From an uncultured Gemmatimonadales bacterium (lineage in GTDB: Bacteria > Gemmatimonadota > Gemmatimonadetes > Gemmatimonadales > Gemmatimonadaceae), in the NCBI GenBank assembly GCA_963851265.1, contig CAWKNZ010000001.1:96001-160000 (forward strand): DNA of 64,000 bases. Reading direction: 5' to 3'. How positions within the stretch are numbered: the first letter of the stretch is position 1; every line of letters starts with the position of its first letter. The notes beneath the pieces are model-generated. The model did no database searches. It saw nothing but the letters and a program-made list of their open reading frames with translations, and was not told where the DNA came from. The translations under genes and the position numbers were made by a program. This document shows positions 4,477 to 62,900 of the stretch, piece by piece.

Positions 4477-5529
4477 ATGCCCCGCGTCCTCGCGCTGCTC
4501 CTCCTCTGCCTGGCCTCGTCGTCGCTCCCTGCGCAGATCCCGACCGGCTCGCGCCCGGTGCCGGCCGACAGCGGCGAGCGTCACCTGACCAACGTCCGCC
4601 AGCTCACCTTCGGCGGCGAGAACGCCGAGGCCTACTTCAGCGCCAGCGGCGACTACCTCACCTTCCAGGGGCGCGTCGACCAGACCGGCTGCGACCAGCA
4701 GTACGTGGTGCGCGTCGCCGACGGCGGCGCCCTCACGCGCGTCTCGCCGGGCGGGGGCAAGACGACGTGCGGCTTCTTCTACGGCGACGACCGGCGCGTC
4801 CTCTTCGGCTCCACCCACGACAACGTGCGCGGCTGCCCCTCCCCGCCCGACAAGTCGCGCGGCTACGTCTGGAAGCTCGACAAGTACGACGTCTACACCG
4901 CCGCCCGCGACGGCTCCGACGTTAGGCGACTGACCAACTACGGGACGTACACCGCCGAGGCGGTGGTCTCGCCCGACGGCCGGCGCGTCGTGTTCACGTC
5001 GCGCAAGGGCGGGGACCTCGACATCTACACGATGAACGTCGACGGGAGCGACGTCCGCCAGCTCACCCACACGCTCGGCTACGACGGCGGGCCGTGGTGG
5101 AGCCCCGACGGCACGCGGATCGTCTACCGCGCGTGGCACCCGACGGATTCGGCGGACGTGGCGCAGTACAAGGCCCTGCTCGCCGACGACCTCGTGAAGC
5201 CCAACCGGATGGAGCTGTGGGTGATGAACGCCGACGGAAGCGGCCAGCGCCAGATCACGCACCTCGGCGGGGCCAACTTCGGGCCGAGTTGGACCGCGGA
5301 CGGGCGCCGGATCATCTTCTCGAGCAACTACCGGCAGCCGCGGAGCGGGAACTTCGACCTGTACCTCGTGAACCTCGACGGCACCGGGCTGGAGCAGGTC
5401 ACGACGAGCCCTACCTTCGACGGGTTCCCGATGTTCAGCCGCGACGGGCGGCACCTCGTGTGGGCCTCCAACCGCCGCGCCGCGACCCCGGGCGAGACGA
5501 ACCTGTTCGTCGCCGACTGGCGCGAGTGA
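4477..5529 (+). CDS. TolB-like/PD40 beta-propeller secreted protein
   Basis: Signal peptide; repeated RQLT...SPDG.RIVF motifs; ENAEAYFS and ETNLFVADW. Confidence 0.85.
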   Translation: MPRVLALLLLCLASSSLPAQIPTGSRPVPADSGERHLTNVRQLTFGGENAEAYFSASGDYLTFQGRVDQTGCDQQYVVRVADGGALTRVSPGGGKTTCGFFYGDDRRVLFGSTHDNVRGCPSPPDKSRGYVWKLDKYDVYTAARDGSDVRRLTNYGTYTAEAVVSPDGRRVVFTSRKGGDLDIYTMNVDGSDVRQLTHTLGYDGGPWWSPDGTRIVYRAWHPTDSADVAQYKALLADDLVKPNRMELWVMNADGSGQRQITHLGGANFGPSWTADGRRIIFSSNYRQPRSGNFDLYLVNLDGTGLEQVTTSPTFDGFPMFSRDGRHLVWASNRRAATPGETNLFVADWRE

Positions 5530-5552
5530 CCACGGCCTAACGTCACCGCACG

Positions 5553-6443
5553 GTGGGCGCGACGGCGCTGCTCCTCGTCCTCGTTTCGGCGGGGTGTCAC
5601 GCGTACTGGAACTTCCTGCTCAAGCGCGCGGGCGGGTCGCACGCGTTCGTCGCGGCCAGCAAGGCGAGCGAGGCGGTGGTCTTCCTGCCCGCGTTCGTCG
5701 CGCTCCTCGTGCGCGCGCCCGCGGGCGCGTTCGACGGCGTGGGCGGTGCGGTGCTCGGCTACGTCGCGGTGGGAACGGCGCTCGTGCTGGCGACCTACGC
5801 CGCCCTCGCCGCGGCCTACCGCCACGGCGACCTCTCGTTCGCGTACCCGATCGCGCGGGGGAGCACGCTCGTCTTCCTCCCCGTGCTCGGCTGGCTCACG
5901 TTCGGCGAGCGACTCGGCCCGCTCGGTTGCGTGGCGGTCGCGGCCATCGTGTCGGGCGTGCTCGCGATGCAGCTGCCGGCGCTCACGCGCGCGGGCGTGC
6001 GGGCGCTCGGCGCGGCGGTGCGCGGGCCCGCGACGGGGTACGCGCTGCTCGTGGCGCTCGTGCTCGCGGGGGGGACGATCTGGGACAAGCTCGCCGTGCG
6101 CGAGGTGCCACTGTTCGCCTACTTCTACGGCTACACGGCGGCCGCGGGGGTGGGCTATCTCGCCATCGTCGTGCGGCGCGAGGGCTGGCCCGCGGTGCGC
6201 GCCGAGTGGCGGGCGCGGCGCGGCACGGCGGTCGCGGTCGGGGTGCTCAACACGACCAGCTACGGCCTCGTGCTGCTCGCGCTGCGCGGGGGCGGGTCGA
6301 CGTACGTGGTCGGGCTGCGGCAGTTGAGCATCGCCGGGGGCGTGGCGTTAGGCGCGCGCCTGGGCGAGCGCGTCACCGCCCCGCGGTGCCTGGGCGTGGG
6401 GCTCGTGGTCGTGGGGTGCGTGCTGATGGCGTGGGGTCGGTGA
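5553..6443 (+). CDS. EamA/DMT family transporter
   Basis: About 10 hydrophobic segments; HAYWNFLLK, AYRHGDLSFAYPIARG, YVVGLRQLSI. Confidence 0.85.
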   Translation: MGATALLLVLVSAGCHAYWNFLLKRAGGSHAFVAASKASEAVVFLPAFVALLVRAPAGAFDGVGGAVLGYVAVGTALVLATYAALAAAYRHGDLSFAYPIARGSTLVFLPVLGWLTFGERLGPLGCVAVAAIVSGVLAMQLPALTRAGVRALGAAVRGPATGYALLVALVLAGGTIWDKLAVREVPLFAYFYGYTAAAGVGYLAIVVRREGWPAVRAEWRARRGTAVAVGVLNTTSYGLVLLALRGGGSTYVVGLRQLSIAGGVALGARLGERVTAPRCLGVGLVVVGCVLMAWGR

Positions 6444-8315: not shown

Positions 8316-8984
8316 TCATCCGTCCCGCCGGCCCAAGCCGGACCCTTCGACCCCCGCGTTCACGAACAACGCCTCGTGTCCGCGGCCCCCGACCCGCACC
8401 GCCGTCACCCCCGCGTGGTCCACCCGCATCCGGAATGCGGATTCCCGCGTCAGTCCGATCGCGTGCACCAGCAGCGCGCGGATGAACCCCGCGTGCGCCA
8501 CCGCGACCACGTCGTGTCCGTCCGCCCTCCCCGCCTCCGCGGCGTCGCGCAGCCACGCCCCCGCGCGCGCGACCACGTCGCCGAATCCTTCCCCTCCCGG
8601 CGTCCTGGCCTCCTGCCAGTCCGCCATCCACGCGCCTAACGCGACCCCGTCGTCGCGCTCCAGCTCCTCCCACGTGCGCCCGTCCCACCGCCCGAAGTGC
8701 ATCTCGCGCAGCCGGGGGTCGGTGCGGATCGGCGGCGCCATGCCCCAGCCCCCGGCGAGCAGTCGGGCGGACTCCCGCGCGCGCAGCAGGTCGCTCGACA
8801 TGAGGAGCGGCGGGCGGGGGAGTGTCCACGTCGCCGCGAGGCGGGCGAGCGCGTCGCGGCCGGCCGGCGCGAGCGGCAGGTCGGTGTGCCCCACGCAGCG
8901 CCCCTCTGCCCCCTGCGCCTCGCCGTGGCGGACGAGGTAGAGCGTGACGGGGGCGTCGACGGGAGCCGCTAACGGCGCAGCCAC
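8316..8984 (-). CDS. cobC: histidine phosphatase (CobC / alpha-ribazole-phosphate phosphatase-like)
   Basis: LYLVRHGE, SSDLLRARES, LREMHFGRWDG, PGGE, VAHAG; directly downstream of cobS. Which of the two paralogues is the true CobC is uncertain. Confidence 0.7.
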   Translation of the reverse strand: MAAPLAAPVDAPVTLYLVRHGEAQGAEGRCVGHTDLPLAPAGRDALARLAATWTLPRPPLLMSSDLLRARESARLLAGGWGMAPPIRTDPRLREMHFGRWDGRTWEELERDDGVALGAWMADWQEARTPGGEGFGDVVARAGAWLRDAAEAGRADGHDVVAVAHAGFIRALLVHAIGLTRESAFRMRVDHAGVTAVRVGGRGHEALFVNAGVEGSGLGRRDG

Positions 8985-9757
8985 GCCGAGGCGAGCAGGA
9001 GGTACGTCGACAGCTCGACCATCTGGTTGGCCGCGCCGAGGCAGTCGCCGGTCATCCCGCCCAGGCGGCGGCGGAAGTAGCGGGCGGCGAGGGCCGTGAC
9101 CAGGGCGGCGAGGGCGACGGCCGCGGCGACCGCGGCCGCGCCTAACGGTACGAGCGCGGCGGCGGTGACGGCGAGCGCGGCGACGGTCCCCGCCGCGAGC
9201 CGCGGCGTGGTCACGCTCGCCGCGAACGGGCGACTCTTGGCGCCGGGCTCCTCGTCCGGGCGCACGTAGGGCAGTCCCCAGATCAGCGGCAGGCTCGACC
9301 AGCGGCCGAGGGCGTGCGCGGCGACCAGGGCGCGGACCGCCGTGCCCGCGTGCGCGTCGGCGACCGCGGCGACGGCGCCCACCTTGGCGAGCAGGGCGAG
9401 CCCGAGCCCGACCGCGCCGTACGACCCGATGCGGCTGTCCTTCATGATCGCGAGCACCTGCCGCTTGTCCCACCCCCCGCCGAAGCCGTCGCAGCTGTCG
9501 GCGAGGGCGTCCTCGTGGAACGCGCCCGTGAGCCACACCGTGGCCGCGGTCGAGAGTGCGGCCGCGACGAAGGGCGGCCAGACGCGTGCGGCGACCCAGA
9601 GGACCGCGCCGCCCGCGAGCCCGACGATCACACCGACGGCCGGGAAGTAGGCCGTCGAGCGCGCGAGGTGCGCGGGATCGTAGCCCACCCAGCGCGGGAC
9701 CGGAATCCGCGTGAGGAACATGACCGCGGTCAAGAAGACGCGGAGCTCGTCGATCAC
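8969..9757 (-). CDS. cobS: adenosylcobinamide-GDP ribazoletransferase (cobalamin synthase)
   Basis: FLTRIPVP, LTGAFHEDALADSCDGFGG, IMKDSRIGSYG, GGMTGDCLGA. Confidence 0.95.
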   Translation of the reverse strand: MIDELRVFLTAVMFLTRIPVPRWVGYDPAHLARSTAYFPAVGVIVGLAGGAVLWVAARVWPPFVAAALSTAATVWLTGAFHEDALADSCDGFGGGWDKRQVLAIMKDSRIGSYGAVGLGLALLAKVGAVAAVADAHAGTAVRALVAAHALGRWSSLPLIWGLPYVRPDEEPGAKSRPFAASVTTPRLAAGTVAALAVTAAALVPLGAAAVAAAVALAALVTALAARYFRRRLGGMTGDCLGAANQMVELSTYLLLASAWLRR

Positions 9758-10422: not shown

Positions 10423-11063
10423 AGCTCGATGCCGGGCTGCGCGCCAATACCCTGGTCGGCGTAGGGGTGCTTGACGACGCGCATCTCCGTGACGAGGTCG
10501 GCCGCGGTGACGAGTGCCTCGGGCGCGTCGCGTCCGGTGATCACCACGTGGGTGCCCACGGGCCGCGCGCGGATGGCGGCGAGCACCTCGCCGACGTCGA
10601 GCCAGCCGTAGTTGAAGGCGTAGGTCATCTCGTCGAAGATGAGCACGTCGAACTCGCCGCCGGCGAGCGCGGCCCGGCACCGCTCCCACCCCGCCTCGGC
10701 GAGGGCGCGGTCGGCGGCGATGTCGTCCGAGAGCCAGGTGAAGCCGTCGCCTAACGGCACGATTTCGACGCCGAGGCGGGCGGCGGCGACGTGCTCGCCG
10801 TAGGGGTTGGCGGCGCTCTTGATGAACTGGAACATCGCCACCCGCATGTCGCGCCCGGCGGCGCGGAGGAGCAGGCCGAGCGCGGCGGTCGTCTTGCCCT
10901 TGCCGTGGCCGGTGTTGACGATGAGCAACCCGTGGCGCCGCTCGCGCGGGGGGACGCGGTACGGGCCGGGCCGCTTCTGTTTGGGGCGCGGCGCGCGGCG
11001 CCCCGCGGGCGTGGTCGCCGCGGCGTCGGCGGGCGGGGTCGAGGGGTCGTTCGGGTCAGCCAC
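10419..11063 (-). CDS. cobO: cob(I)yrinic acid a,c-diamide adenosyltransferase (CobA/CobO/BtuR)
   Basis: NTGHGKGKTTAALG, QFIK, FDEMTYA, VITGRDAP, ADLVTEM..VKHPY, AQPGIEL. Confidence 0.95.
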   Translation of the reverse strand: MADPNDPSTPPADAAATTPAGRRAPRPKQKRPGPYRVPPRERRHGLLIVNTGHGKGKTTAALGLLLRAAGRDMRVAMFQFIKSAANPYGEHVAAARLGVEIVPLGDGFTWLSDDIAADRALAEAGWERCRAALAGGEFDVLIFDEMTYAFNYGWLDVGEVLAAIRARPVGTHVVITGRDAPEALVTAADLVTEMRVVKHPYADQGIGAQPGIEL

Positions 11064-12204
11064 GGTCGGCGGTCGAAGAGGGGGGGGCCTGCGGCGCGTC
11101 GGTGCGCGCGCGGCGGTCGGCGCCGCCGAGCGCGTCGCCGAGCGCGTCGGCGAGTGCGTCGGCGAGGCGCGCGTTCTCGGGCGGCGTGCGCGCGGCCACG
11201 CGCACGTGGGCGGGGAGCCCGAACGAGGCGCAGTCGCGCACGCGCAGCGCGTGGCGGTCGCGCAGCGCGCGCGTCAGCCGCGCGCCGGCGCCCGCGTCGT
11301 CGCCGGCGCGCAGCAGGAAGTAGTGTACGTCGGACGGCACGTCGCACGCGGGCGCGAAGGTGGCGCGGAGCACGGCCGCGGCGTCGCGCAGCAGGGCCGC
11401 CGTGCGGCGCGCGTGTTCGAGCGCCCCGGGGGTGCACGCGGCGACGGCCGCGGCCTGCGCCGCGGTCGAGACGCCCCACGGCATCCGCGCCCGATCAAGC
11501 GCGGCGACGGCCTCCGCGGTTCCCGCGGCGTAGCCGACGCGCACGCCGGCCAGCGCGTGGTCCTTGGTGAGCGAGCGCAGGTGTAGCACCGCGGGGTGTC
11601 CGGGCAGCGCGGGCGTGCCTAACGGCTCGCGCGCGAACGCGTCGAACGACTGGTCGAGGACGAGCCGCGCGCCCGCCGCGGCGCACGCGTCGGCGACCTC
11701 CCGCACGGCCGCGAGCGGCCACGCGCGCCCGGTCGGGCTCTCGGGGGTGCACAGGAAGGCGACGCGCGGGCGCTCCGCGGCAACCGCCTCGGCGAACGGC
11801 TGCCCGCGCGCGGGGGTCACCACGCGCGCGCCCGCGAGTTCGGCGGCGCGCGCGTACTCGCCGAACGCGTGACGCGGAACGAGCACGCCGGCGTCGCCCC
11901 GCCCGTCGCCGCCGCGCGCGAACGCGAGTGTGGCGGCGAGGATCAGCTCCGCCGCGCCGGCGCCCACCGCCACGCAGTTCTCGGCCACGCCCGCGTGGGC
12001 GGCCAGCGCGGCGCGGGCCGCGCCGCACGTCGGGTCGGGGTACGCGGCGAGGCGCGCGGGGGCGGTCGCGGCCCGGACCGCCTCGACGACGACGTCGGCG
12101 GGGCCGTACGCGTTGACCGAGGTGGAGAAGTCGGCCCACACGGGACGCAGGTGCTCGTCCCCCGACGGACCGCCGTGTGCGACGCGCCCGGGGGTGACGC
12201 TCAC
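11056..12204 (-). CDS. cobD: L-threonine-O-3-phosphate decarboxylase-like PLP enzyme
   Basis: HGG, DFSTSVNAYGP, YPDP, GAAELI, DQSF, LRSLTKDHALAGVRVGY, VRDCASFGL; cob operon context. Symbol follows Salmonella usage. Confidence 0.8.
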   Translation of the reverse strand: MSVTPGRVAHGGPSGDEHLRPVWADFSTSVNAYGPADVVVEAVRAATAPARLAAYPDPTCGAARAALAAHAGVAENCVAVGAGAAELILAATLAFARGGDGRGDAGVLVPRHAFGEYARAAELAGARVVTPARGQPFAEAVAAERPRVAFLCTPESPTGRAWPLAAVREVADACAAAGARLVLDQSFDAFAREPLGTPALPGHPAVLHLRSLTKDHALAGVRVGYAAGTAEAVAALDRARMPWGVSTAAQAAAVAACTPGALEHARRTAALLRDAAAVLRATFAPACDVPSDVHYFLLRAGDDAGAGARLTRALRDRHALRVRDCASFGLPAHVRVAARTPPENARLADALADALGDALGGADRRARTDAPQAPPSSTADRG

Positions 12205-12211
12205 GCGACCG

Positions 12212-13189
12212 TCACCGGCGACGACCCTCGAGTGCGACGGCGGCCGCAGCCGCGAGCGCGACCGCGGCGCCGACCACGCGCCGCGCGCGGGCGAGGTCGC
12301 CCGCCACCGGCGCGCGGCCGGCCGCGTGCAGCACGTACAGCCGGCCGGCGCCGTCGGCTGCCGCGCCGCGCTTGTCGAGCCGCACGCCGAGCGCGCCGGC
12401 CATCGCCGCCATCGGCCAGCCGGCGTTGGGGCTCGGCGTGCGCCGGGCGTCGGCGCGGGCGGCGCCTAACGCCCGACGGGTGGACCCGCCGCCCGCGGGG
12501 GCGGCGAGCGCGACGAGCAGGGCGGCGAGCCGCGCCGGCGCGAGGTTGAGCGCGTCGTCCGCGCGCGCCGCCGCCTTGCCGAACCATTCGAGCTCGGGCG
12601 TGCGGTAGCCGAGCATGGCGTCGGCGGTGTTCACGAAGCGGTGGGCGTAGGCGAGCGCGAGTCCGCCGGCCGCGTGCGCGAGGAGCGGTGCGACCACGCC
12701 GTCGCCCAGATTCTCGGCGAGCGACTCGATCGCCGCGCCGGCCACCTCGGACGCCGTGAGGTGCGCGGTGTCGCGCGAGACGAGGTGCCACGCGAGCAGT
12801 CGCCGCGCCTCGGGGAGGTCGCCGCGGCCGAGGGCGCGCTCCACCGCGCCGCCGGCCGCGAGCAGCGCGCGCACGGCGAACGCGGGCTTGAGCAGGAGCC
12901 CGCCGAGCGCCGTGCGGAGCCGCGCGTCGGGCACCCGCGCGAGCGCCCGCTCGGCGAGGAGCCCGGCCGCGCCCGCGGCCAGCGCGCCCGCGCCTAACGT
13001 CGCCGCGCCCGCGATCAGGGCGGCCGCCGGCGACCGGCGCGCGCCGGCGTGCCACGCGCGCGCGCGGCCGAGTGGGCGCCCCATCCAGACCGTCGGGTGG
13101 AGCGCGTTCGGCGGCTCGCCGAGGACGATGTCGGCCGCGAGGGCCGCGGCGACGCGCGCCGCGCGTCGCGGCGGAGGAGAAACGATCAG
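12212..13189 (-). CDS. cbiB: adenosylcobinamide-phosphate synthase; apparent CTG start
   Basis: [83 protein letters not shown]. Confidence 0.92.
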
Positions 13190-14277
13190 AACGTGCGAAT
13201 CTGGATGTCGGACGGCCCCGCGCCGACCGCGACGCTGTCGCGCAGCGCGAACGTGCCCGCGCTGTAGACGAACACCTGCGGGGCGAGCGCCGGATTTGCG
13301 CTGCCGAAGAACACCTGGTACAGCGAGCCGTCGGTGGTCGCCGCGGCGCCGAACGCGCCGCGGCACGTGCCCGTGGTCCCGATCGGGGCGCACACCGGGT
13401 TGGACGGGCCGCGCACGAACTGGCGCGTGGCCGTGTTCCACACGAGCGTGCCGAAGTAGTAGCCCGAGACGTAGGCGAGGCCGTTGGCGTCGATCGTGAT
13501 CCCGCCGGGTCCGACGCCCATCCCCGGGACGGTGGTCTCGAGGGCCATCGTCGTCGGGTTGATCACCCCGAGGCTCCCCGGCGTCACGTAGTCGCCGGTG
13601 TTGACGACGTAGATCTTGCCGTCCGGGCCCACCGCGGCGGAGGTCGCGTTCGTGCCGCCGGTCGACACCGTGCCGGTGACCGTCATCGTCGCCGGGTCGA
13701 TCGCCGTCACGATGCTGTTGCCGATCGGGGCGTAGCTGGCGTTGAGGTTGCCCGAGACGACGAAGACGCGGTTGGCGGCTACCACCACCTCGGTCGGCGC
13801 CGGCGCGACGCCGACGGTGGTGGTGATCGCGTCGCCGGTTTGGCCGACGCGGAAGCGGCCGACGGTGTTGTTGCCCGTGTTGGCCGCGACGACGGTGCTG
13901 TCGTCCACCCACGCCGAGCCCGTCGCGTTGCCGGACGCGAAGGTGAAGAAGCGCTTCACGGTCCCGCCCGCGAGGTCGACGAGCGCGACGCTCGCCGCGT
14001 CGCCGAGCGGCACGGCGGCGCTGCGGCCCCGGAGCGAGAGGCTGACCGGCGTCACCGTGCTGCTGCTGCCTAACGGAATGGTCTGCGTGGTCGTCGGGCT
14101 GCCGAGCTGGAAGAGCGTGAGCGCGTGCCCCGTCGAGTTGACGACGACGCCGATCTGGTGGTTGCTGGAAGTGCCGCCGAGGAACCCGGGGGCGACCGGG
14201 TTGGTGACGGAGTCGCTGCTGCACCCCGCGGCGGCCAGCACGAGGAATGCGGCGGCGGGGCGGACGGAAGTGTGCAC
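13186..14277 (-). CDS. YncE-like beta-propeller lipoprotein (BtuG-like candidate)
   Basis: Lipobox LAAAGC; repeated [15 protein letters not shown] / VGAGPSDI (YVTN-like) blades; directly downstream of the TonB receptor. Confidence 0.75.
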
Positions 14278-14300
14278 GGGCGTTGGGTGGAGTGGAGAGG

Positions 14301-16619
14301 TCAGGGACGCACGGCGCCGCGCCGCAGGCGGAGCGCGACGCTCCACGTGCGGCCGGGGAACGGGTAGTCGATCAGCATCGCGGCCGACCGGTCGAAGAGG
14401 TTCTCGACGCCGGCGGTCGCGTCGAGCGCCCAGCCGCTGGCCGCGTTAGGCCGGGCGACGGGCACCGCCAGTCGCGCGTCGGTGCGCCAGTAGGGCGCGA
14501 GCGAGTTCACGGCGTAGCCCGGGACGGTGCGGCGCTCGCCGACGTAGCGCGCGACGACGTCGACGCGCGTGCCGGCGGGGGCGAGGCGCGGCACGAGCGC
14601 GCCGCCCGAGACGCTCGCCGTCGTGCGCGGGCGGTAGACGACCTGCCCGCCGAGCACCGGCCCGGCGTAGGTCACGTCGGCGCGGGCGAGGGCGCCCCGC
14701 ACGTCGACGCCTAACGCGGGGAGGGCGGCGCGCACGGTGCCCTCGCGGCCGGCGCGGCGCACGTCGTAGTTGGTCGGGCTCCAGACGAAGCGGTAGTCCG
14801 GCATCCAGAGGATCATCCCGTCGACGTCGGCGCGGTACGCGCTCCCCTCCGCGTCGATCCGCGCGGGGCCGACCGGGAGGTCGCGCACGGCGGCGTGGGC
14901 CTCCCGCTCGCCGCGCACGCGTTCGGGGCGGAGGTCGGGGTTGGGGCGCACGAGCACGCCCTCGTGGAAGAACTGGTCGGCCAGCGTCGGCGACGAGAAC
15001 GACGAGCTGACCGAGCCGCCGAGCGAGACCCGCCCCGCGGTGAGGGCGAGCCCGGCCCGCGGCGACGCGACCGTGCCGGCGACGAGCGAGTTGCGGTCGA
15101 GCCGCGCGCCGGCATCGGCGGAGAGTTCGAGCGGCGCGCCGAGCACGCGGCCCGCCGTGCGTGCGAGACGGAGCGCGCCCCACGTGCCGAGCTGGCGCTG
15201 GTTCCCCGGCGCGCCGTCGGCCAGCTCGTTCGACCGCATGCGGTAGAGGCGGCCTTCCGCCCCGAGTTCGGCGGTCGCAGCGGCGAATCGGGCGTGCAGC
15301 GGCGCGGTCACGCCCCCCGTCGCGACCGCGGAGCGTGCGTCGACCGCGTCGTCGTACGCGGCGCCGAACGGCGGGGTCGGGTCGGCGAACGCGGCGCGCT
15401 CGCGGGCGAGCGACGCCGACCCCGTCCACGTGACGCGCTCGCCCGTCCACCGGCCGTCGAGCGCGGCCGTCGTGCGGTCGCCCGACTCGCGCCCGCTGAG
15501 CGACGGCTGCACTATGGAGCCGACGAGCCCGCGGGCGCTCTCCTGCCAGGTGGCGCGCGCGCGCAACGAGCCGCGGTCGCCGTCGAGCGCGGCGGTCCCG
15601 ACGAGGTCGCTGACGCGCGCGTCCGCGTTCTCGCGCCGCGCGGTGCCGCCGCCGCGCTCGGGCGGAACGTCGTACGAGAAGTCCCCGCGCTCGCTCCGTC
15701 GGTCGGCGGTGAACGACCCGCTCAGCCGCCGCGTGTCGCCGCGTGCGGCGCCGTCTGCCGCGCCGCCGTCCGCCGTGCCGAGTTCGCGCGTGCCGCCCAC
15801 CGCCAGTCCGGCGTCCCGTTCCCCCCACGCGCCCGTGCGCGCCGTGACCGACGCCTCGCGCTCCACGCGGCGCGTCTCGACGAGGATCACGCCGCCTAAC
15901 GCGCGGTCGCCGTAGCGCGCCGACTGCGAGCCCGGCAGCACGGTGACGCGCTCGACGGCGTCGAGCGAGAGGCGCGACAGGTCGGCGTCGCCGGTGATCG
16001 TCGAGTTGAGCGGCACGCCGTCGACGAGCACGAGCACCTCGCCCGCGCTCGACCCGCGGATCGAGGCGTGGGCGGGCGCGCCCGGCCCGCCGGCCTGCGT
16101 GACCACCACGCCGGGCGTCGCCTGCAGCAGCTCGCCCACGTCGCGCCGTCCCGAGCGCTCGATCGTTGGACGGTCGAACACGGCCGCGCCGGGCGCGTCG
16201 GCGGGGCGCCGGGCGTCGACGCGCACGGCGGCGAGCCGCCGCGCGGCGGCCTGCAGCGTCACGCGCACGACCTCCGCCCGCCCGTTGGCGATCGCGACGG
16301 CCACGTCGCGCGGCGCGTAGCCGAGCGCGCGGACGCGGAGCGCGTGCGCGCTCGGGTCGAGTCCGCGGAGCACGAAGGTGCCGTCCTCCGCGGTCGCGGC
16401 AGCCGCACCGGCGTCGTCCGCCTCGACCCGTGCGCCCGGGACGGGCCGTCCGGTGCGCCCGTCGACCACGCGCCCGCGCACCTCGCCCGGGACCTGTGCG
16501 CGCGCCGCACAGGGTGCGGCCGCCAGCGCCACGGCCAGCGTTGCGACGCGTGTGGCACCCGGCGTGGCGACCCGTGTGGCCGCCGGCGCGACGCGCGGCC
16601 CGCGCCTCCCCGCGTTCAC
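14301..16619 (-). CDS. btuB: TonB-dependent outer-membrane receptor, cobalamin (BtuB-like), with an N-terminal carboxypeptidase-regulatory-like domain
   Basis: Plug SIRGS...[11 protein letters not shown]...[21 protein letters not shown], barrel NPDLRPE, C-terminal GVENLFD...YPFPGRTW; lies under a B12 riboswitch. Confidence 0.8.
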
Positions 16620-18546: not shown

Positions 18547-18547
18547 G

Positions 18548-22875: not shown

Positions 22876-23464
22876 CGGCCCCGCGCACGGGTTCCTCCCC
22901 CTCACCCTGCTGCTCGGCGGCGTGCGCTCGGGCAAGAGCGCGCGCGCGGTCGCGATGGCCGATGCCCTCGCCGGCGCGGACGGGCGCGTGCTCTTCGCGG
23001 CCACGGCCGAGGCCTTCGACGACGACATGGCGCGTCGGATCGCCGCGCACCGGGCGGAGCGCCCACCGCACTGGCACGCGGTCGAGGCCCCGCTCGACCT
23101 CGCCGGGGCGGTCTCGGGCGCGCTCGCGGCGGCGGACGCGCCCTACGCGGCCGTCGTCGTCGACTGCCTCACGCTCTGGACGAGCAACCTGCTCCTCTCG
23201 CTCGCCGACCCGCGCGAGGCGGAGGCGCTCGCGGCCGAGCGCGCGGGGGAGTTGCTCGCCGTCGTGCCGGCCGCGCGGGGCGCGCGGTGGATCGTGGTGA
23301 GCAACGAGGTCGGGCTCGGCGTCGTCCCCGCGAGCGCGTTAGGCCGCGCCTTCCGCGACGCGCTCGGCCGCGTGAACCAGCGCGTCGCGGCCGCGGCCGA
23401 CGAGGTCACGCTGATGGTCGCGGGGCTGGAGGTGCCGGTGCGGGCGCGCCGGCCGCCGGGGTAG
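22868..23464 (+). CDS. cobU: bifunctional adenosylcobinamide kinase / cobinamide-phosphate guanylyltransferase
   Basis: LGGVRSGKS, RIAAHRAER, VDCLTLW.SNLL, VSNEVGLGVVP, FRDALGRVNQ, MVAG. Confidence 0.95.
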   Translation: MTNGPAHGFLPLTLLLGGVRSGKSARAVAMADALAGADGRVLFAATAEAFDDDMARRIAAHRAERPPHWHAVEAPLDLAGAVSGALAAADAPYAAVVVDCLTLWTSNLLLSLADPREAEALAAERAGELLAVVPAARGARWIVVSNEVGLGVVPASALGRAFRDALGRVNQRVAAAADEVTLMVAGLEVPVRARRPPG

Positions 23465-49730: not shown

Positions 49731-51440
49731 ATGCGCACGCCCCTCTCCGCCCGCCGCGCCCTCGCGGTGCTCCTCGCCATCTCGTCCGCCGCCCTCGGCA
49801 CCGCCGCCGTCGGCACCGCCGCCGTCGCGCAGCAACCCGCGCCGCCCGCCGGGCCGCCCGCGGCGCCGCCGCGCCAGCCCGACGCCTCGGACTCGATCAA
49901 GTACGTCTACGCGAGTACGCCCCGCCTCGACGCGCTCAAGGCGGAGGCGGCGCGTGAGGTCGATGCGCGCGCGAAGCAGATCCAGGTGATGGTCGACCAG
50001 GTGTTCTCGTACGGCGAGCTCGGGATGCAGGAGGTCGAGACCTCGCGCTACCTGTCGGGGATCCTCGAGCAGAACGGGTTCACCGTCACCCGCGGCGTGG
50101 CCGGCCTCCCCACCGCGTTCGTCGCGCGCTGGGGCTCGGGCAAGCCCGTGATCTCGCTCGGCTCCGACATCGACGACATCCCGCAGGCGGGGCAGAAGCC
50201 CGGCGTCGGCTACCGCGACCCGATCGTCGCGGGCGCGCCCGGGCACGGCGAGGGGCACAACTCGGGCGTGCCGCTCAACATCGCGGCCGCGCTCGTGGTG
50301 AAGAAGATCATGGAGCGCGAGCACCTGCCGGGCACGCTCGTGCTCTGGCCCGGGGTGGCCGAGGAGGCGATGGCGGGCAAGGCGTTCCTAGTGCGCGACG
50401 GCGTGTTCAAGGACGTCGACGTCACGCTGTTCACGCACGTGGGCGACCGCCTGGCCGTGAGTTGGGGGCAGAGTGGGAGTAATGCGCTCATCTCGGCCCT
50501 CTTCAAGTTCCGCGGCACCAGCGCGCACGCCGCGGCCGCGCCGTGGCGCGGGCGGAGCGCGCTCGACGCGGTGATGCTGATGGCCAACGCGTGGGAGTTC
50601 CACCGCGAGCACATGGAGCTGCAGCAGCGCTCGCACTACGTGATCCCCGACGGCGGCGACCAGCCTAACGTGGTGCCCACCACGGCGAGCATCTGGTTCT
50701 ACTTCCGCGAGCGCGACTACGACCGCACGCGCCGGATGTTCGACGACGCGCGCAAGATGGCCGAGGGCGCGACGCTGATGACCGGCACGCAGCTCGACAC
50801 CGTGCAGATGGTCGGCTCGGGGTGGAGCGGGTACTTCTCGCGCCCGGTGGCCGAGGCGATGTACCAGAACATCAAGGCCGTGGGCATGCCCACGTGGGAC
50901 GCGCGCGACCAGGCACTCGCGCGCGGCATCCAGCGCGAGCTCGGCGTGCCCGACAGCGGGCTCTCGACGCGCCCGGGGCGACTCGTCGGGCCGGTCAACG
51001 AGGCCACGCGCATGGGCGGCGGCTCGGACGACATCGGCGACGTGAGCTGGACCGTGCCGACCATCACGCTCAACTATCCGTCCAACATCCCCAACCTGCC
51101 CGGCCACAACTGGGCCAACGCCATCGCGATGGCCACGCCCATCGCGCACAAGGGCGTCGTGGCGGGCGCCAAGGTGCAGGCGATGACGATGCTCGACCTG
51201 CTGTTCCAGCCGAAGCTCGTCGCCGACGCGTGGGACTTCTTCAACACGGTGCAGACCAAGACGGTCAAGTACCGCCCCTTCTTCGCGGCCACCGACAAGC
51301 CCCCCACGTGGCTCAATGAGGGGATCATGGCGAAGTACCGCCCCGAGATGAAAAAGTACTATTACGATCCCAAGAAGTACGGCACGTACCTCGAGCAGCT
51401 CGGCATCACCTACCCGACGGTGCGCAAGGTTGTCCAGTAG
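49731..51440 (+). CDS. secreted M20 amidohydrolase (AbgB-like)
   Basis: ELGMQEVETS, PTAFVA.WGSGKP, GHGEGHNSG, AEE, HAAAAPWRGRSALDAV, GSDDIGDVSW. Confidence 0.88.
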   Translation: MRTPLSARRALAVLLAISSAALGTAAVGTAAVAQQPAPPAGPPAAPPRQPDASDSIKYVYASTPRLDALKAEAAREVDARAKQIQVMVDQVFSYGELGMQEVETSRYLSGILEQNGFTVTRGVAGLPTAFVARWGSGKPVISLGSDIDDIPQAGQKPGVGYRDPIVAGAPGHGEGHNSGVPLNIAAALVVKKIMEREHLPGTLVLWPGVAEEAMAGKAFLVRDGVFKDVDVTLFTHVGDRLAVSWGQSGSNALISALFKFRGTSAHAAAAPWRGRSALDAVMLMANAWEFHREHMELQQRSHYVIPDGGDQPNVVPTTASIWFYFRERDYDRTRRMFDDARKMAEGATLMTGTQLDTVQMVGSGWSGYFSRPVAEAMYQNIKAVGMPTWDARDQALARGIQRELGVPDSGLSTRPGRLVGPVNEATRMGGGSDDIGDVSWTVPTITLNYPSNIPNLPGHNWANAIAMATPIAHKGVVAGAKVQAMTMLDLLFQPKLVADAWDFFNTVQTKTVKYRPFFAATDKPPTWLNEGIMAKYRPEMKKYYYDPKKYGTYLEQLGITYPTVRKVVQ

Positions 51441-51464: not shown

Positions 51465-52541
51465 GTGAACCGCCGCGTTCAGGTTGGCGCGTTCCTCGCC
51501 GGCGTCGCGTTCCTCGCCTGGCTCGTCGTCACCACCGGTGCGCGTGCGATCCTCCGCGACCTCGCGCGCACCGGCTGGACGTTCGTCCCGCTCGTCCTGG
51601 TCTGGGGCGGCGTCTACGCGCTGAATACGGTCGCCTGGCTCGCGCTGCTGCGCGGGGCCGTCACGGCCGACGCCGCCGACGCGCGTGGGCAGCCGGCGCC
51701 GGGGGTGAGCGCGCTCGAGGGGATCGGCGTCGTGCCGTTCCCCCGCGCGTTCGCGATCACCGTCTCCGCGTTCGCGCTCAACTACGTCACGCCGTTCGTC
51801 AGTCTCGGCGGCGAGCCGTTCAAGGGCGCCGCGGCGGCGCGCTGGGTGGGGCGGCCGCGCGCGGCGGCGAGCGTCGTCGGCTTCCGCATCGTCCACACCC
51901 TCGGCCAGTTCCTCTTCTGGGTGCTGAGCATCCCGGTGGCGTGGGCGGTGCTCCCCGCGGACCGCACGATGCGCGCGCTACTGCTCGCGGCCAGCGTGGT
52001 GCTCGTCCCGGCGAGCGCGGGCGCGCTGCTGCTGCTCCGCGCGCGCGTGCTCGAGCGCGGGCTCGACGCGCTCGGCCGCGTGCGGCTCGGCCGCGCGCTC
52101 GACGCGTTAGGCGCGCGGCTGCTGGCGCGCCTCGAGCCGCGCCGCGCCGCGCTCGCCGCGGTCGACGCGGACCTCGCCGCGGTGGCCCGCCACCCCGCGA
52201 CGCTCGCCGTCGCGCTGGGCGCGGAGGTCGCCGGGCGCTTCCTGGCCGCGGTCGAGTTCGTGCTCGTCGCGCGCGTCGTCGGCGCGCGGTTCGGGTACGC
52301 CGACGCGGTGGTCGCCGCGGGCGTGTCGCAGGTCGTGATGAACCTGCTGTTCTTCGTCCCCTTCGAGGCCGGCACGCGCGAGGGCGGGCTCTTTCTCGTC
52401 GCGCGGCTGCTCGGACTGGCGCCGGCGGTGGGCGTCTACGCCGCGCTCGTCACCCGGCTGCGCGAGCTGACGTGGATCGGGATCGGGCTGGCGCTGATCT
52501 GGGCGACCGGGTCCGGCGGGCGGGCGCGGAACGAGGCGTAG
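51465..52541 (+). CDS. lysylphosphatidylglycerol-synthase TM / UPF0104 flippase-like membrane protein
   Basis: FALNYVTPFVSLGGEPFK, FFVPFEAGTREGG, TRLRELTW; multiple TM segments. Confidence 0.8.
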   Translation: MNRRVQVGAFLAGVAFLAWLVVTTGARAILRDLARTGWTFVPLVLVWGGVYALNTVAWLALLRGAVTADAADARGQPAPGVSALEGIGVVPFPRAFAITVSAFALNYVTPFVSLGGEPFKGAAAARWVGRPRAAASVVGFRIVHTLGQFLFWVLSIPVAWAVLPADRTMRALLLAASVVLVPASAGALLLLRARVLERGLDALGRVRLGRALDALGARLLARLEPRRAALAAVDADLAAVARHPATLAVALGAEVAGRFLAAVEFVLVARVVGARFGYADAVVAAGVSQVVMNLLFFVPFEAGTREGGLFLVARLLGLAPAVGVYAALVTRLRELTWIGIGLALIWATGSGGRARNEA

Positions 52542-59757: not shown

Positions 59758-61814
<2,057 letters not shown>

Positions 61815-61818: not shown

Positions 61819-61849
61819 CGGACACGCCGGCGGCGTGCTGGCGTGTCCG
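61819..61849 (+). terminator. hairpin downstream of the ABC-F gene
   Basis: CGGACACGCCGGC-GGCGT-GCTGGCGTGTCCG; no U-tract. Confidence 0.45.
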
Positions 61850-62009
61850 GAGCCGCGGGTGAAGCATCGCGGCGACCGCCGCGCGCTCGGCCTGCTGCGC
61901 AACGCGTTCGGCCGCGAGCTGCTGCACCCGCGGGGGTGAGGCCCGCGCGGCCGCCGAGCGCCTAACGTCATGGCGCCCGGCGGCCCGGCGTGCGGCGCTT
62001 TACCGCGCC

Positions 62010-62900
62010 TTACGGCGCCTTGTTGCTCGGCCGGATGGTCTGGAACTCGTAGGAGAGGACGCTCTTGAGCGTGAGCTTGTCGCTCCCCGGGGTGAGCCCC
62101 TTCACGAGGCCGAGGTTCCAGTCGAGCCCGGGGATGAACCGGACGTCCACCGTCGGGACGATCGCGTGCCGCTGGTCGCGGACGGAGAGCAACTGGCCTA
62201 ACGGCCCGACCTGGTTGTAGTACTCGACCCCGGGCTGGAGCAGGTGGTAGCGCCGCCAGTAGATCCCCCCGGCGAAGCCGCCCGAGAACCGGCTCCCGGC
62301 GTTCTCGGTGCCGACCATCTCGCTGCCGCCCCCGTGCTCGCCCGACGACCCGCCGCCGGAGGACGCGCGCTGCTCGTTGCTGAACGTGCGCCCGACGATC
62401 GGGTTGAGCACGAGGCGGAAGTCGTTCAGGTCGCGCTGCAGGATGAGCCGCGCCTCGAGTTCCTGCGCCGCCTCGTACTTGGCGCGCGGCACCGAGTACT
62501 CCAGGTACACCGCCGGGTCGAGGAAGCGCTGGTAGCGGCTCCCGAAGCGGTAGCGCCCCTCGATGCGTGCGGCCGTGTAGCGCAGCGGCAGTCCGGGCGC
62601 GCTCTCGAAGTCGGTGTAGCCGGCGAGCGTGAACCGGTCGGTCATCCCGTACTCGAGTTCGGCGCTGTGTGCGGTGACGCCCTGCTCGCTGACGGTCCGG
62701 CCGAAGTGGCTGTAGTCGAGCGTGCTGCGCGCCACCCACGAATCCCACAGTGCGGGCTCCGCCCACCCCTGCATGGGCGTGTCCCACTGGTACACGCGGT
62801 AGCGCTGGGCCGACGCGGGTGCGGCGGCGGCGCCCATGAGGCACGCCGTCGTTAGGCATGCGGCCGTGAGGCGCGCGGCGGTCGAGGTGCGTGCGATCAT
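62010..62900 (-). CDS. putative outer-membrane beta-barrel protein
   Basis: Signal peptide, alternating aromatic beta-strands (ELEYGMTDRFTLAGY, PAVYLEY, ELEARLILQ), near-terminal LSYEF; ATGA-coupled to the P19-like gene. Confidence 0.6.
   Translation of the reverse strand: MIARTSTAARLTAACLTTACLMGAAAAPASAQRYRVYQWDTPMQGWAEPALWDSWVARSTLDYSHFGRTVSEQGVTAHSAELEYGMTDRFTLAGYTDFESAPGLPLRYTAARIEGRYRFGSRYQRFLDPAVYLEYSVPRAKYEAAQELEARLILQRDLNDFRLVLNPIVGRTFSNEQRASSGGGSSGEHGGGSEMVGTENAGSRFSGGFAGGIYWRRYHLLQPGVEYYNQVGPLGQLLSVRDQRHAIVPTVDVRFIPGLDWNLGLVKGLTPGSDKLTLKSVLSYEFQTIRPSNKAP

What the first reader, a model, noticed from the sequence alone, without database searches (positions are those of the whole stretch)
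4920..62857. Highly iterated non-palindromic octamer GCCTAACG/CGTTAGGC written through coding sequence
Seen: 30 exact copies counted by eye, 16 in one orientation and 14 in the other, plus a 7/8 match at 28137. A rough independent-base estimate at ~75% GC gives about 2 expected. 27 copies lie inside genes and force codons that are otherwise rare here. Most read NCG-TTA-GGC, but other frames and orientations occur: GTT-AGG (4921, where sister repeats of the same protein use GTC-CGC), CCT-AAC (14444, 27044, 50663) and CTA-ACG (28500, 62850). Three copies are intergenic; the one at 24231 forms the loop of a CGGACGC/GCGTCCG hairpin. Inference: selection acts on the DNA word, not on the protein or codon. 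Known analogues are DNA-uptake sequences (Neisseria, Pasteurellaceae) and cyanobacterial HIP1. The lack of strand bias argues against Chi or KOPS. It could be an uptake tag, a nucleoid/SMC-related binding site, or a methylation- or repair-linked motif. I do not know of such a system described for this lineage.
Basis: partly seen in the sequence, partly recalled or inferred. Interest (0 to 1): 0.85.

Follow-up and report, generated by a model that had tools for sequence, protein, structure and literature searches.

The report
Hyperabundant GCCTAACG genome word
This soil bacterium has written one eight-letter DNA word into its genes, stop codons and spacers far more often than its coding habits allow, on both strands and evenly spaced, much like the self tags some bacteria use when taking up DNA; the word is spelled like the recombination core of integron gene cassettes, and what reads it is unknown.

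Summary
GCCTAACG/CGTTAGGC occurs 30 times in the window (about 1 expected) and 1,396 times in the 4.6-Mb genome. It is 12-49 times over codon-aware expectation in all four stop-free frames. It also supplies 92 of 420 TAA stop codons and is 2.6 times denser outside genes. Independent assemblies of four congeners carry it, partly at the same orthologous sites, so it is not an artefact.

Copies avoid each other within about 500 bp whatever their orientation. Among 45 relatives counted in two searches the word is all-or-none by lineage. Four word-poor relatives show no substitute word; there it survives only as the R'' box of integron attC sites.

I found no link to an integron integrase, Vsr, AddAB/RecBCD, a ComP-type pilin, one minor pilin or a conserved MmeI-like methylase. 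ComEC is in 40 of 41 genomes.

Best reading (about 0.4): a DNA-uptake-sequence-like tag that spreads by biased uptake plus recombination, with an unknown reader. Rivals are a chromosomal protein-binding site, an integron-linked role and a repair bias.

This scan had already found the same word, on other pieces of this genome and in other genomes. New here are the spacing test, the word-free stretches and the negative gene profiles.

The parts
4920..4927 (-). word copy in PD40 beta-propeller gene 4477-5529(+), read GAC GTT AGG CGA (D-V-R-R)
5535..5542 (+). intergenic copy, 6 nt after the stop of gene 4477-5529
6346..6353 (-). copy in EamA transporter gene 5553-6443(+), GCG TTA GGC (A-L-G)
8634..8641 (+). 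copy in histidine-phosphatase gene 8316-8984(-), GCG TTA GGC; kept in G001 and G004, GCCGAACG in G003
9140..9147 (+). copy in cobS 8969-9757(-), CCG TTA GGC; not kept in 3 congeners (CTC or TTG codons there)
10749..10756 (+). copy in corrinoid adenosyltransferase gene 10419-11063(-), CCG TTA GGC
11617..11624 (+). copy in class I/II aminotransferase gene 11056-12141(-), CCG TTA GGC; kept in G001 and G003
12464..12471 (+). copy in cobD/cbiB 12212-13084(-), GCG TTA GGC
12992..12999 (+). second copy in cobD/cbiB, ACG TTA GGC
14068..14075 (+). copy in unassigned gene 13186-14277(-), CCG TTA GGC; kept in G001 and G003
14444..14451 (-). copy in TonB-dependent receptor gene 14301-16532(-), read CGG CCT AAC GCG (R-P-N-A); G001 has CGTCAGGC (N/D difference)
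14709..14716 (+). copy in TonB-dependent receptor gene, GCG TTA GGC
15894..15901 (+). copy in TonB-dependent receptor gene, GCG TTA GGC
17932..17939 (+). copy in FecCD permease gene 17530-18546(-), ACG TTA GGC; kept in G001 and G004
20740..20747 (-). copy in DUF4015 gene 20082-21191(+), ACG TTA GGC
22478..22485 (-). copy in cobQ 21322-22875(+), CCG TTA GGC
23337..23344 (-). copy in cobU 22868-23464(+), GCG TTA GGC; TTG variant in G003
24231..24238 (+). intergenic copy spanning the top of a 7-bp stem and the 5-nt loop: CGGACGC-CTAAC-GCGTCCG
27044..27051 (-). copy in M1 aminopeptidase gene 26007-28706(-), GCG CCT AAC GCG (A-P-N-A)
27558..27565 (+). copy in M1 aminopeptidase gene, TCG TTA GGC
28500..28507 (-). 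copy in M1 aminopeptidase gene, CGC CTA ACG (R-L-T)
31126..31133 (-). copy in PAS/histidine-kinase/receiver gene 28965-31406(+), GCG TTA GGC
33343..33350 (-). copy in heptosyltransferase gene 32874-33992(+), GCG TTA GGC; the next copy is 15.4 kb away
48755..48762 (-). copy in GFO/IDH/MocA oxidoreductase gene 48568-49659(+), ACG TTA GGC
50663..50670 (+). copy in unassigned gene 49731-51440(+), CAG CCT AAC GTG (Q-P-N-V)
52105..52112 (-). copy in LPG-synthase-TM gene 51465-52541(+), GCG TTA GGC
60985..60992 (-). copy in ABC-type ATPase gene 60894-61814(+), CCG TTA GGC
61960..61967 (+). intergenic copy between convergent genes 60894-61814(+) and 62010-62900(-)
62196..62203 (+). copy in unassigned gene 62010-62900(-), CCG TTA GGC
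62850..62857 (-). copy in the same gene, TGC CTA ACG (C-L-T)

Best explanation
[C/T]GCCTAAC[G>A] is a double-stranded, orientation-independent 'self' tag of the DUS/USS kind. An as yet unidentified DNA receptor of the transformation (or another DNA-transfer) machinery prefers fragments that carry the word. Fragments taken up replace the resident allele by homologous recombination, so the word is driven into the genome wherever the protein tolerates it, against GC pressure and codon preference. One copy per roughly kilobase-sized fragment is enough, so nearby copies add nothing and are lost.

Shown here: the DNA-level enrichment, strand neutrality, short-range saturation, turnover with retention, lineage-wise all-or-none distribution, and presence of the uptake channel and type IV pilins.

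Inferred: that the reading step is DNA uptake, and that a specific receptor exists.
For: 1. Enrichment is at the DNA level.
- All four stop-free frames are 12-49 times over codon-usage expectation. Occupancy is 16.4% (nCG TTA GGC) in one orientation and 21.5% (G CCT AAC G) in the other.
- 92 of 420 TAA stops sit in GCC-TAA-CG.
- Density is 0.67/kb outside called genes against 0.26/kb inside.
- The flank logo is the same in coding and intergenic copies.

2. There is no strand preference: 688 + against 708 -. Orientation simply follows gene orientation.

3. Saturation is orientation-independent. I compared coding copies with 300 random placements on peptide-compatible sites.
- Gaps under 200 bp: 5 against 51 +/- 6. 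Gaps under 500 bp: 57 against 120 +/- 9.
- Same-orientation pairs within 500 bp: 45 against 88. Opposite-orientation pairs: 12 against 41.
- In the richest relative, G012, 100 kb gives a spacing CV of 0.87 and 1 gap under 100 bp against 10.5 expected.

4. Copies are most frequent downstream of genes: 0.98/kb in convergent spacers against 0.25/kb in divergent ones. DUS and USS also sit in terminators (recalled).

5. Copies are retained as often as preferred-codon controls, with ongoing turnover. 17 of 30 window copies are identical in congeners at 78-83% DNA identity, against 13 of 31 for the control CGCTCGGC, which is built of preferred codons. Each congener has private gains. The one-step decay product TTG is enriched twofold at the same sites.

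6. The trait is all-or-none by lineage. 11 of 41 relatives have at least 0.1 copies/kb (up to 1.25/kb) and 26 have at most 65 copies. Of 4 further family members counted, 2 are rich and 2 poor.

7. The machinery is present. ComEC is in 40 of 41 genomes. G000 has prepilin-type genes and a PilM-like neighbour.

8. Alternatives lose support: Vsr, AddAB/RecC and the integron integrase.
Against: - No reader was found.
- ComEC and pilins are just as present in word-poor genomes, so they do not explain the patchiness.
- A ComP_DUS-type pilin passes its cut-off in 1 of 41 genomes, and that genome is word-poor.
- The one minor pilin that looked promising in 5 genomes is uncorrelated across 41.
- Four word-poor relatives have no substitute word, unlike the DUS 'dialects' of Neisseriaceae (recalled).
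- The largest word-free stretches are core housekeeping regions, not foreign islands. They include 45 kb with [16 protein letters not shown], 22 kb with infC-rplT-pheS-dxs and 18 kb with nusA-infB-secDF. A simple uptake model does not predict this. These stretches are lineage-specific: shared with G001, less so with G004, absent in G012.
- The exact match to the attC R box is unexplained by uptake alone.
- In this library I found no paper that combines Gemmatimonadota with uptake sequences.
Confidence: 0.4

Rival explanations
1. The word is the binding site of an abundant chromosomal DNA-binding protein (nucleoid-, segregation- or defence-related 'self' mark). Selection for a roughly even coverage of the chromosome maintains it. 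The protein gene is patchily inherited or mobile.
For: - Spacing is even and orientation-independent.
- The largest word-free stretch in G000 (45 kb, no 7-mer copy) covers [16 protein letters not shown], and the dnaA neighbourhood on the same contig is also sparse. This could reflect incompatibility with origin-proximal organisation.
- The trait is all-or-none by lineage.
Against: - The word-free stretches are not general. In G012 the parB and nusA-infB regions carry the word at full density, and in G004 the nusA-infB region has 8 copies in 21 kb.
- Selection per site would have to be strong enough to hold a roughly 1% codon at 16-30% of eligible sites.
- No candidate protein was found.
Confidence: 0.2
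2. The word works through integron biology. It is a lone R box read by the integron integrase or a related tyrosine recombinase, for example as a docking or decoy site, or as raw material for new attC sites.
For: - The word equals the R''/R' boxes of attC sites in G000's own cassette array (CGCCTAACG ... CGTTAGGCG).
- In word-poor G027, 26 copies on one strand are each the R'' of a roughly 100-nt attC, whose R' reads TGTTAGGC.
- The two commonest genome-wide forms...AACG (1,396) and ...AACA (243), mirror R'' and R'.
- The published attC consensus is RYYYAAC/GTTRRRY (PMC3053210, passages).
Against: - Integrase (TIGR02249 over cut-off) is found in 6 of 11 rich and 17 of 26 poor genomes. It is broken in the richest genome (G012), split in G000, and not found in rich G008, G018 and G002.
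- Only a handful of the 1,396 copies have an attC-like inverted partner: 5 convergent pairs spaced 50-130 bp.
- Integrase-mediated insertion into genomes needs only GWT (bioRxiv 10.1101/2022.09.11.507474, passages).
- R boxes inside genes would invite disruptive insertions.
Confidence: 0.1
3. The word is produced by a biased mutation or repair process (very-short-patch-like repair, a methylation-linked process as proposed for cyanobacterial HIP1, or biased gene conversion) that turns near-matches into the word.
For: - The same flanks occur in all contexts.
- The one-off neighbour TTG is enriched and CTG depleted at eligible sites.
- Occupancy rises with GC3 from 5.9% to 29.8% across gene deciles, as expected if it tracks recombination.
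- A conserved MmeI/Eco57I-like methylase exists. Enzymes of that family read asymmetric 6-8 bp sites (recalled).
Against: - A site-autonomous process does not predict repulsion between copies within 500 bp.
- Vsr was found in 4 of 41 genomes, all word-poor.
- The MmeI-like gene is present in 40 of 41 genomes, rich or poor. In 21 of the 23 relatives checked it reads as one continuous open match. It was not found in rich G002.
- Relatives G034 and G037 carry it yet show no hyperabundant word.
Confidence: 0.1
4. The word is a Chi-like signal that tames a helicase-nuclease and protects self DNA.
For: - The density (1 per 3.3 kb) is close to that of E. coli Chi (recalled).
- G000 has an AddAB-like pair of PD-(D/E)XK genes at C3:244.5-249 kb.
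Against: - No strand skew.
- Opposite-orientation copies repel each other as strongly as same-orientation ones.
- RecC was not found in G000.
- PDDEXK_1 matches occur in only 2 of the 11 richest genomes, and in none of G001, G004, G008, G012 and G040.
- The enrichment is far above what I recall for Chi.
Confidence: 0.03

Closest known systems
DNA uptake sequences: DUS of Neisseriaceae and USS of Pasteurellaceae
   Same: A short non-palindromic word occurs hundreds to thousands of times per genome (0.3/kb here, 1.25/kb in G012). It sits on both strands equally, inside genes against codon preference, is more frequent 3' of genes, is spaced more evenly than chance, and turns over between species.
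   Different: - The sequence is different and shorter (8-9 informative positions).
- The phylum is different (Gemmatimonadota).
- No ComP-type receptor was found.
- Relatives lack the word entirely rather than carrying dialects.
- Inverted terminator pairs are few.
- Core housekeeping stretches are word-free.
- Uptake bias is untested.
The properties of DUS and USS are recalled, not taken from a call.
Integron attC R box (inverse core RYYYAAC / core GTTRRRY) and attI core
   Same: The spelling is identical. The attC sites of G000 and of word-poor relatives use GCCTAACG as R'' and (C/T)GTTAGGC as R'. The consensus is given in PMC3053210.
   Different: Nearly all genomic copies are solitary, without an L box or hairpin partner, and sit inside ordinary conserved genes. 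Abundance does not follow the integrase.
HIP1 (GCGATCGC) of cyanobacteria
   Same: An 8-bp word is hyperabundant in coding and non-coding DNA regardless of frame, and its mechanism is unresolved (recalled).
   Different: HIP1 is palindromic and has been linked to methyltransferases (recalled). This word is asymmetric, and neither Vsr nor the conserved MmeI-like methylase tracks it.
Chi sites and KOPS/AIMS
   Same: Over-represented asymmetric octamers with similar density.
   Different: Those are strand-skewed with replication and act in one orientation. This word shows no skew and saturates regardless of orientation. The nuclease partner is missing in most rich genomes.

Membership tests
DUS/USS-type uptake sequence | Short non-palindromic word, hyperabundant genome-wide far above codon-aware expectation | tested here: met
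   1,396 copies. 1,032 in coding sequence against 42.9 +/- 7.4 after synonymous shuffling. 12-49 times over expectation in 4 frames.
DUS/USS-type uptake sequence | Both orientations equally frequent; function independent of orientation | tested here: met
   688 + against 708 -. Same- and opposite-orientation pairs are both depleted within 500 bp.
DUS/USS-type uptake sequence | Word-bearing DNA is taken up or transformed preferentially | not testable with these tools
   Needs uptake or transformation assays in a word-rich strain.
DUS/USS-type uptake sequence | Transformation machinery present | tested here: met
   ComEC (PF03772) in 40 of 41 genomes including G000. Prepilin genes in G000. The machinery is equally present in word-poor genomes, so this is permissive only.
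DUS/USS-type uptake sequence | Specific receptor (ComP-type minor pilin in Neisseria) | tested here: not met
   PF16732 passes its cut-off in 1 of 41 genomes (word-poor G014) and has no match in G000. A 330-aa minor pilin of G000 is uncorrelated with the word. A different receptor is not excluded.
DUS/USS-type uptake sequence | Related species share the word or a dialect of it | tested here: inconclusive
   All 5 genomes of the genus and 8 other genera carry the identical word at 0.1 copies/kb or more. Four word-poor relatives show no other hyperabundant word.
Chi | Orientation bias with replication, and action in one orientation only | tested here: not met
   No skew beyond gene orientation. 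Repulsion is orientation-independent. The origin was not mapped exactly; dnaA lies at C1:12 kb.
Chi | Cognate RecBCD or AddAB in every genome that carries the signal | tested here: not met
   RecC has no match in G000. PDDEXK_1 matches in 15 of 41 genomes, only 2 of the 11 richest.
HIP1 / VSP-repair-driven words | Palindromic word tied to a methyltransferase and a Vsr-type endonuclease | tested here: not met
   The word is asymmetric. Vsr is in 4 of 41 genomes, all word-poor. The MmeI-like methylase is in 40 of 41 regardless of the word. Methylation itself was not testable.
Integron attC / attI recombination site | R box sequence RYYYAAC / GTTRRRY | tested here: met
   GCCTAAC / GTTAGGC fits the consensus and is the R box of attC sites in G000 and G027.
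Integron attC / attI recombination site | Paired R''-L''...L'-R' hairpin (attC), or L plus R boxes next to intI (attI) | tested here: not met
   5 convergent pairs at attC-like spacing (50-130 bp) among 1,384 neighbouring pairs. Flanks carry no further conserved positions.
Integron attC / attI recombination site | Dependence on an integron integrase | tested here: not met
   TIGR02249 passes its cut-off in 6 of 11 rich and 17 of 26 poor genomes. It is broken in G012 and split in G000.

The most novel reading that the evidence does not exclude
The word is an uptake (or transfer) tag that copies the R box of integron attC sites. Every gene cassette in this order ends in a hairpin that carries two inverted copies. 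Lineages that read the word would therefore fish integron cassettes, as well as DNA of their own kind, out of the soil DNA pool. Their own chromosomes would fill with the word as a by-product. That would link natural transformation and the integron cassette economy at the level of sequence.
Probability: 0.12. Interest if true: 0.9.

Novelty: new variant of a known kind. Interest (0 to 1): 0.78.

Why it matters
Sequence-specific self-recognition in DNA uptake is established, to my recollection, in only two proteobacterial families. A third, independent case in Gemmatimonadota, an abundant but poorly studied soil phylum, would show that such tags evolve repeatedly. It would also predict natural transformation in a phylum where my search of this library found no paper pairing it with uptake sequences.

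The identity of the word with the integron attC core gives a concrete hypothesis: how gene cassettes move between soil bacteria could be tied to what competent cells choose to take up.

Its density separates lineages sharply, from 0 to 1.25 copies per kb. It may also help to flag contigs placed in the wrong genome bin.

Tried and rejected
1. Assembly or base-calling artefact: rejected. Four independently assembled congeners and other genera carry the word, partly at orthologous sites. The alternatives at those sites are mostly ordinary synonymous codons.

2. Part of a longer repeat: rejected. No conservation beyond position -1 (C/T favoured) and position 8 (G>A).

3. Codon or peptide effect: rejected. 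The proteome is barely bent: [SPTA]LG has O/E 1.18 against 0.95-1.12 in four relatives, and PN is unchanged.

4. Dicodon-preserving null: circular.

5. Integron integrase as reader: no association.

6. Vsr: found only in 4 word-poor genomes.

7. MmeI/Eco57I-like 1,141-aa methylase (G000:C7:582,089-585,511).
- It looked associated with the word, because many orthologues in word-poor genomes were flagged '1 TGA'.
- A prospective test on 4 new genomes gave 2 clear hits, 1 miss and 1 unclear.
- tblastn then showed that the flagged stops lie outside the aligned gene. Only G007 and G021 are frameshifted.
- The association was an artefact and I dropped it.

8. 'Dialect' words in word-poor relatives: none in 400-kb samples of G006, G021, G034 and G037. 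The top unrelated 8-mers reach z of about 11, apart from a repeat family in G037 (up to 19.7), against 45 for the word in G000.

9. Minor pilins. The C9 330-aa and C5 324-aa proteins looked rich-specific in 5 genomes, but the 330-aa protein is widespread in word-poor genomes and was not found in rich G001 and G002. The C3 409-aa pilin is in all 5.

10. ComP_DUS: not found.

11. AddAB/RecBCD: not associated.

12. Word-free stretches as foreign islands: rejected, they are housekeeping clusters.

13. Word-free stretches as a fixed incompatibility with parAB or translation genes: rejected, because G012 and G004 carry words there.

14. Canonical parS near parB: none found within 2-3 mismatches. The consensus I used was recalled.

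15. Replication skew: none seen, but GC skew is weak and the origin is not mapped.

16. Literature: no paper in the library holds the word in this sense (listing only), combines Gemmatimonadota with uptake sequences or describes such a word (listings).

Full report
WHAT IS THERE

The window is G000:C1:96,001-160,000 of a 4.60-Mb, 12-contig, 73% G+C assembly. Its closest named relatives by one protein are Gemmatimonadaceae MAGs, as earlier notes of this scan also say.

GCCTAACG or its complement occurs 30 times in the window, against 1.05 +/- 0.99 in 100 dinucleotide-preserving shuffles.
- 21 copies read nCG-TTA-GGC, 3 read CCT-AAC, 2 read CTA-ACG and 1 reads GTT-AGG.
- 3 copies are intergenic.
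- One of these, at 24231, sits on top of a CGGACGC/GCGTCCG hairpin.
- The host genes are ordinary: a cobalamin salvage and transport cluster, an M1 peptidase, a hybrid histidine kinase, a heptosyltransferase and others.

GENOME-WIDE STATISTICS

There are 1,396 copies, 688 + and 708 -, at 0.27-0.41 per kb on every contig.
- 23% of all 6,001 TAA/TTA trinucleotides of the genome lie in the word.
- The core GCCTAAC (1,762 copies) is followed by G 1,396, A 243, C 69 and T 54 times.
- It is preceded by C 52%, T 26%, G 17% and A 5%, with the same preferences inside and outside genes and nothing conserved further out.
- 1,043 copies lie wholly in called coding sequence, and 1,032 of these could be assigned to a frame. 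353 do not, although only 11.5% of the genome is non-coding. That is 0.67 against 0.26 copies per kb.

Frame by frame:
- nCG TTA GGC: 775 copies, 16.4% of all 4,713 [SPTA]-L-G sites, O/E 48.
- nnG CCT AAC Gnn: 172 copies, 21.5% of 801 sites, O/E 18.5.
- nGC CTA ACG: 62 copies, O/E 12.
- nnC GTT AGG Cnn: 23 copies, O/E 49.

775 of the 1,287 TTA codons sit in the word. Outside it, TTA is 0.39% of Leu codons. Shuffling synonymous codons within genes leaves 42.9 +/- 7.4 copies against 1,032. 92 of 420 TAA stops read GCC-TAA-CG.

A dicodon-preserving null 'explains' 676 of the 775 copies, but only because the dicodons are themselves made by the word: TTA-GGC occurs 994 times against 75 expected. 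That null is circular. The proper external null is the set of word-poor relatives, which hold 0-4 copies per 400 kb.

NOT AN ARTEFACT, AND MAINTAINED

Four other species of the genus carry 727-2,415 copies each. I aligned 8.7-14 kb of the window to three congeners at 78-83% identity.
- 17 of 30 window copies are identical in the congener.
- The same holds for 13 of 31 copies of the control CGCTCGGC, which is built of preferred codons.
- The congeners have 10, 2 and 4 copies that the window lacks.
- Where the word is missing, the site mostly holds CTC, CTG or TTG. Sometimes the protein differs (F/L, N/D).
- At eligible sites TTG is enriched twofold and CTG depleted. This fits a mutation-drive balance through two transitions.
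- The proteome is hardly bent: [SPTA]LG has O/E 1.18 against 0.95-1.12 in relatives.

NEW STRUCTURAL EVIDENCE

1. Copies repel each other at short range. I compared them with 300 random placements of the same number of copies on peptide-compatible sites.
- Gaps under 200 bp: 5 against 51 +/- 6 (minimum 35).
- Gaps under 500 bp: 57 against 120 +/- 9 (minimum 93).
- The deficit holds for same-orientation pairs (45 against 88 within 500 bp) and for opposite-orientation pairs (12 against 41).
- In 100 kb of the richest relative, G012, the spacing CV is 0.87, and 1 gap under 100 bp is seen against 10.5 expected.
- So one copy in either orientation saturates a neighbourhood of about 0.5-1 kb. This argues against a site-autonomous mutational bias and against an orientation-dependent signal such as Chi.

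2. Occupancy of the two one-rare-codon frames rises from 5.9% in the lowest GC3 decile of genes to 29.8% in the highest.

3. Intergenic copies favour gene ends: 0.98/kb in convergent spacers, 0.38/kb in co-directional ones and 0.25/kb in divergent ones.

4. Orientation follows gene orientation only. I saw no replication-linked skew, though GC skew is weak and the origin is not mapped.

WORD-FREE STRETCHES

The longest is 45 kb (C1:182,876-227,962) and lacks even the 7-mer core. Others span 17-31 kb.

They are not foreign islands. They hold [16 protein letters not shown], infC-rplT-pheS-zapA-rny-folD-xseAB-dxs, nusA-infB-rbfA-truB-secDF-gatB, and his/murB genes.

They are lineage-specific.
- In G001 the parB and nusA regions are also sparse: 3 copies in 35 kb, and none in 16.6 kb.
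- In G004 the nusA region has 8 copies in 21 kb.
- In G012 both regions carry the word at full density.

So the word is not incompatible with those genes. The stretches look like regional history. This remains unexplained.

DISTRIBUTION AMONG RELATIVES

Of 41 genomes of the order:
- 11 have at least 0.1 copies/kb: all 5 of the genus, plus G008, G012 (6,360 copies, 1.25/kb, at only about 62% G+C), G017, G018, G036 and G040.
- 4 are intermediate.
- 26 have at most 65 copies.

Of four more family members, two are rich (G042 with 308, G043 with 953) and two poor. 400-kb samples of four word-poor genomes show no other hyperabundant word. The top unrelated 8-mers reach z of about 11 (up to 19.7 for a repeat family in G037), against 45 for the word in an equal sample of G000.

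THE INTEGRON LINK

In word-poor genomes the few copies cluster on one strand at 400-700 bp spacing. In G027:C95 these are a classical cassette array. 26 copies are each the R'' box of a roughly 100-nt attC hairpin whose R' box reads TGTTAGGC.

G000 has its own array, at C10:188.9-215 kb running into C6:1-6 kb, with attC sites CGCCTAACG ... CGTTAGGCG and a split intI.

The word fits the published RYYYAAC/GTTRRRY consensus (PMC3053210, passages). Its two main genomic forms...AACG and ...AACA, mirror R'' and R'.

However:
- Only 5 convergent pairs at attC-like spacing (50-130 bp) exist among the 1,396 copies.
- The integrase is found in 6 of 11 rich and 17 of 26 poor genomes, and is broken in G012.
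- Integrase-mediated insertion into genomes needs only GWT (bioRxiv 10.1101/2022.09.11.507474, passages).

The identity of spelling is too exact to dismiss and is not explained.

SEARCH FOR A READER OR WRITER

- ComEC is in 40 of 41 genomes.
- G000 has several prepilin clusters.
- ComP_DUS passes its cut-off in 1 of 41 genomes, a word-poor one.
- A minor pilin that looked rich-specific in 5 genomes is not so in 41.
- Vsr is in 4 of 41 genomes, all word-poor.
- RecC is not found in G000. AddAB-type domains are found in 15 of 41 genomes, but in only 2 of the 11 richest.
- A conserved MmeI/Eco57I-like methylase is in 40 of 41 genomes. An apparent link between its intactness and the word was an artefact of read-through stops.
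- The tallies over 41 or 25 genomes include G011, which is unpublished.

READING

The pattern has these features:
- strong DNA-level enrichment
- strand neutrality
- saturation per kilobase-sized neighbourhood in either orientation
- a preference for gene ends
- turnover with retention
- all-or-none distribution by lineage

To my knowledge only uptake sequences are explained by a known mechanism that fits, namely biased uptake plus homologous recombination. I put that at about 0.4. It is not shown: no receptor was found, the competence genes do not discriminate, and the word-free stretches and the attC identity are not predicted.

A chromosomal binding site (0.2), an integron-linked role (0.1) and a repair or methylation bias (0.1) remain. 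Chi-like action is largely refuted (0.03).

PRIOR WORK

I found no description in the literature library. The searches were for the word itself, Gemmatimonadota with uptake sequences, Gemmatimonadota with attC and uptake sequences in soil bacteria. I saw listings only, except for the passages cited above.

The scan had already noted the same word on other pieces of this genome and in other genomes, with the same uptake-tag reading and the integron lead. I re-tested both here. What this report adds:
- the spacing test
- the GC3 gradient
- the housekeeping word-free stretches
- the absence of dialects in four word-poor relatives
- the negative profiles for the integrase, Vsr, AddAB, ComP, a minor pilin and the MmeI-like methylase

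Noticed in passing
G000:C10:188,900-215,025 and G000:C6:1-6,300 (loci L237-L239): A sedentary chromosomal integron. It has a cassette array of at least 26 kb with small reverse-strand genes and attC sites (R'' CGCCTAACG, R' CGTTAGGCG). The array runs off the end of C10, and similar cassettes open C6 next to an intI that matches the model in two pieces 2 kb apart. Two copies of a 370-aa gene sit between GCCTAACA and TGCCTAACG, which looks like an insertion sequence that targets attC.
   Followed up: partly
G000:C1:182,876-227,962; also C2:1,150,385-1,172,683, C2:1,420,207-1,437,928 and C1:24,812-41,789: Word-free stretches of 17-45 kb cover core housekeeping clusters (gidA-parAB-mnmE; infC-rplT-pheS-dxs; nusA-infB-secDF; his/murB). 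They are shared in part with congener G001, less so with G004, and not with G012. The cause is unknown.
   Followed up: partly
G000:C7:582,089-585,511 (locus L158): A 1,141-aa Eco57I/MmeI-like methylase-type gene is conserved at 38-82% identity in 40 of 41 genomes of the order. Such conservation is unusual for a restriction-modification-type gene. It is frameshifted only in G007 and G021.
   Followed up: partly
window 8316-23464: A cobalamin salvage cluster: two histidine phosphatases, cobS, a corrinoid adenosyltransferase gene, an aminotransferase gene, cobD, cobQ and cobU. It is interleaved with a TonB-dependent receptor and an ABC importer (FecCD permease, ATPase, periplasmic binding protein). 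I did not look for a riboswitch upstream.
   Followed up: no
window 472-963 and 1744-2610: One gene matches the 23S rRNA intervening-sequence protein family. A 288-aa gene matches replication initiator protein A (PF10134), a plasmid-type initiator, in a chromosomal setting.
   Followed up: no
window 34060-35265: A 401-aa fusion of a HAD-type hydrolase with a cytidine/deoxycytidylate deaminase domain.
   Followed up: no
window 33351-48754: 15.4 kb of the window has no copy of the word. It holds a response regulator gene, two large genes without a Pfam match, and a cluster of HAD hydrolase, nucleotidyltransferase, class III aminotransferase and CDP-alcohol phosphatidyltransferase genes. G+C is slightly lower here (72-74%).
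   Followed up: no
loci L201-L220 (G037:C1:1-400,000) and L117-L136 (G006:C4:1-400,000): Word-poor relatives have small repeat families of their own. G037 has CTCCTCACT-type and TATTGGCTA-type words (28-54 copies per 400 kb). G006 has ACAGTCGGAC (15 copies). I did not characterise them.
   Followed up: no
G000:C3:244,523-248,949: An AddAB-like pair of PD-(D/E)XK genes. This domain family is patchy in the order (15 of 41 genomes) and mostly missing from the word-rich genomes.
   Followed up: partly
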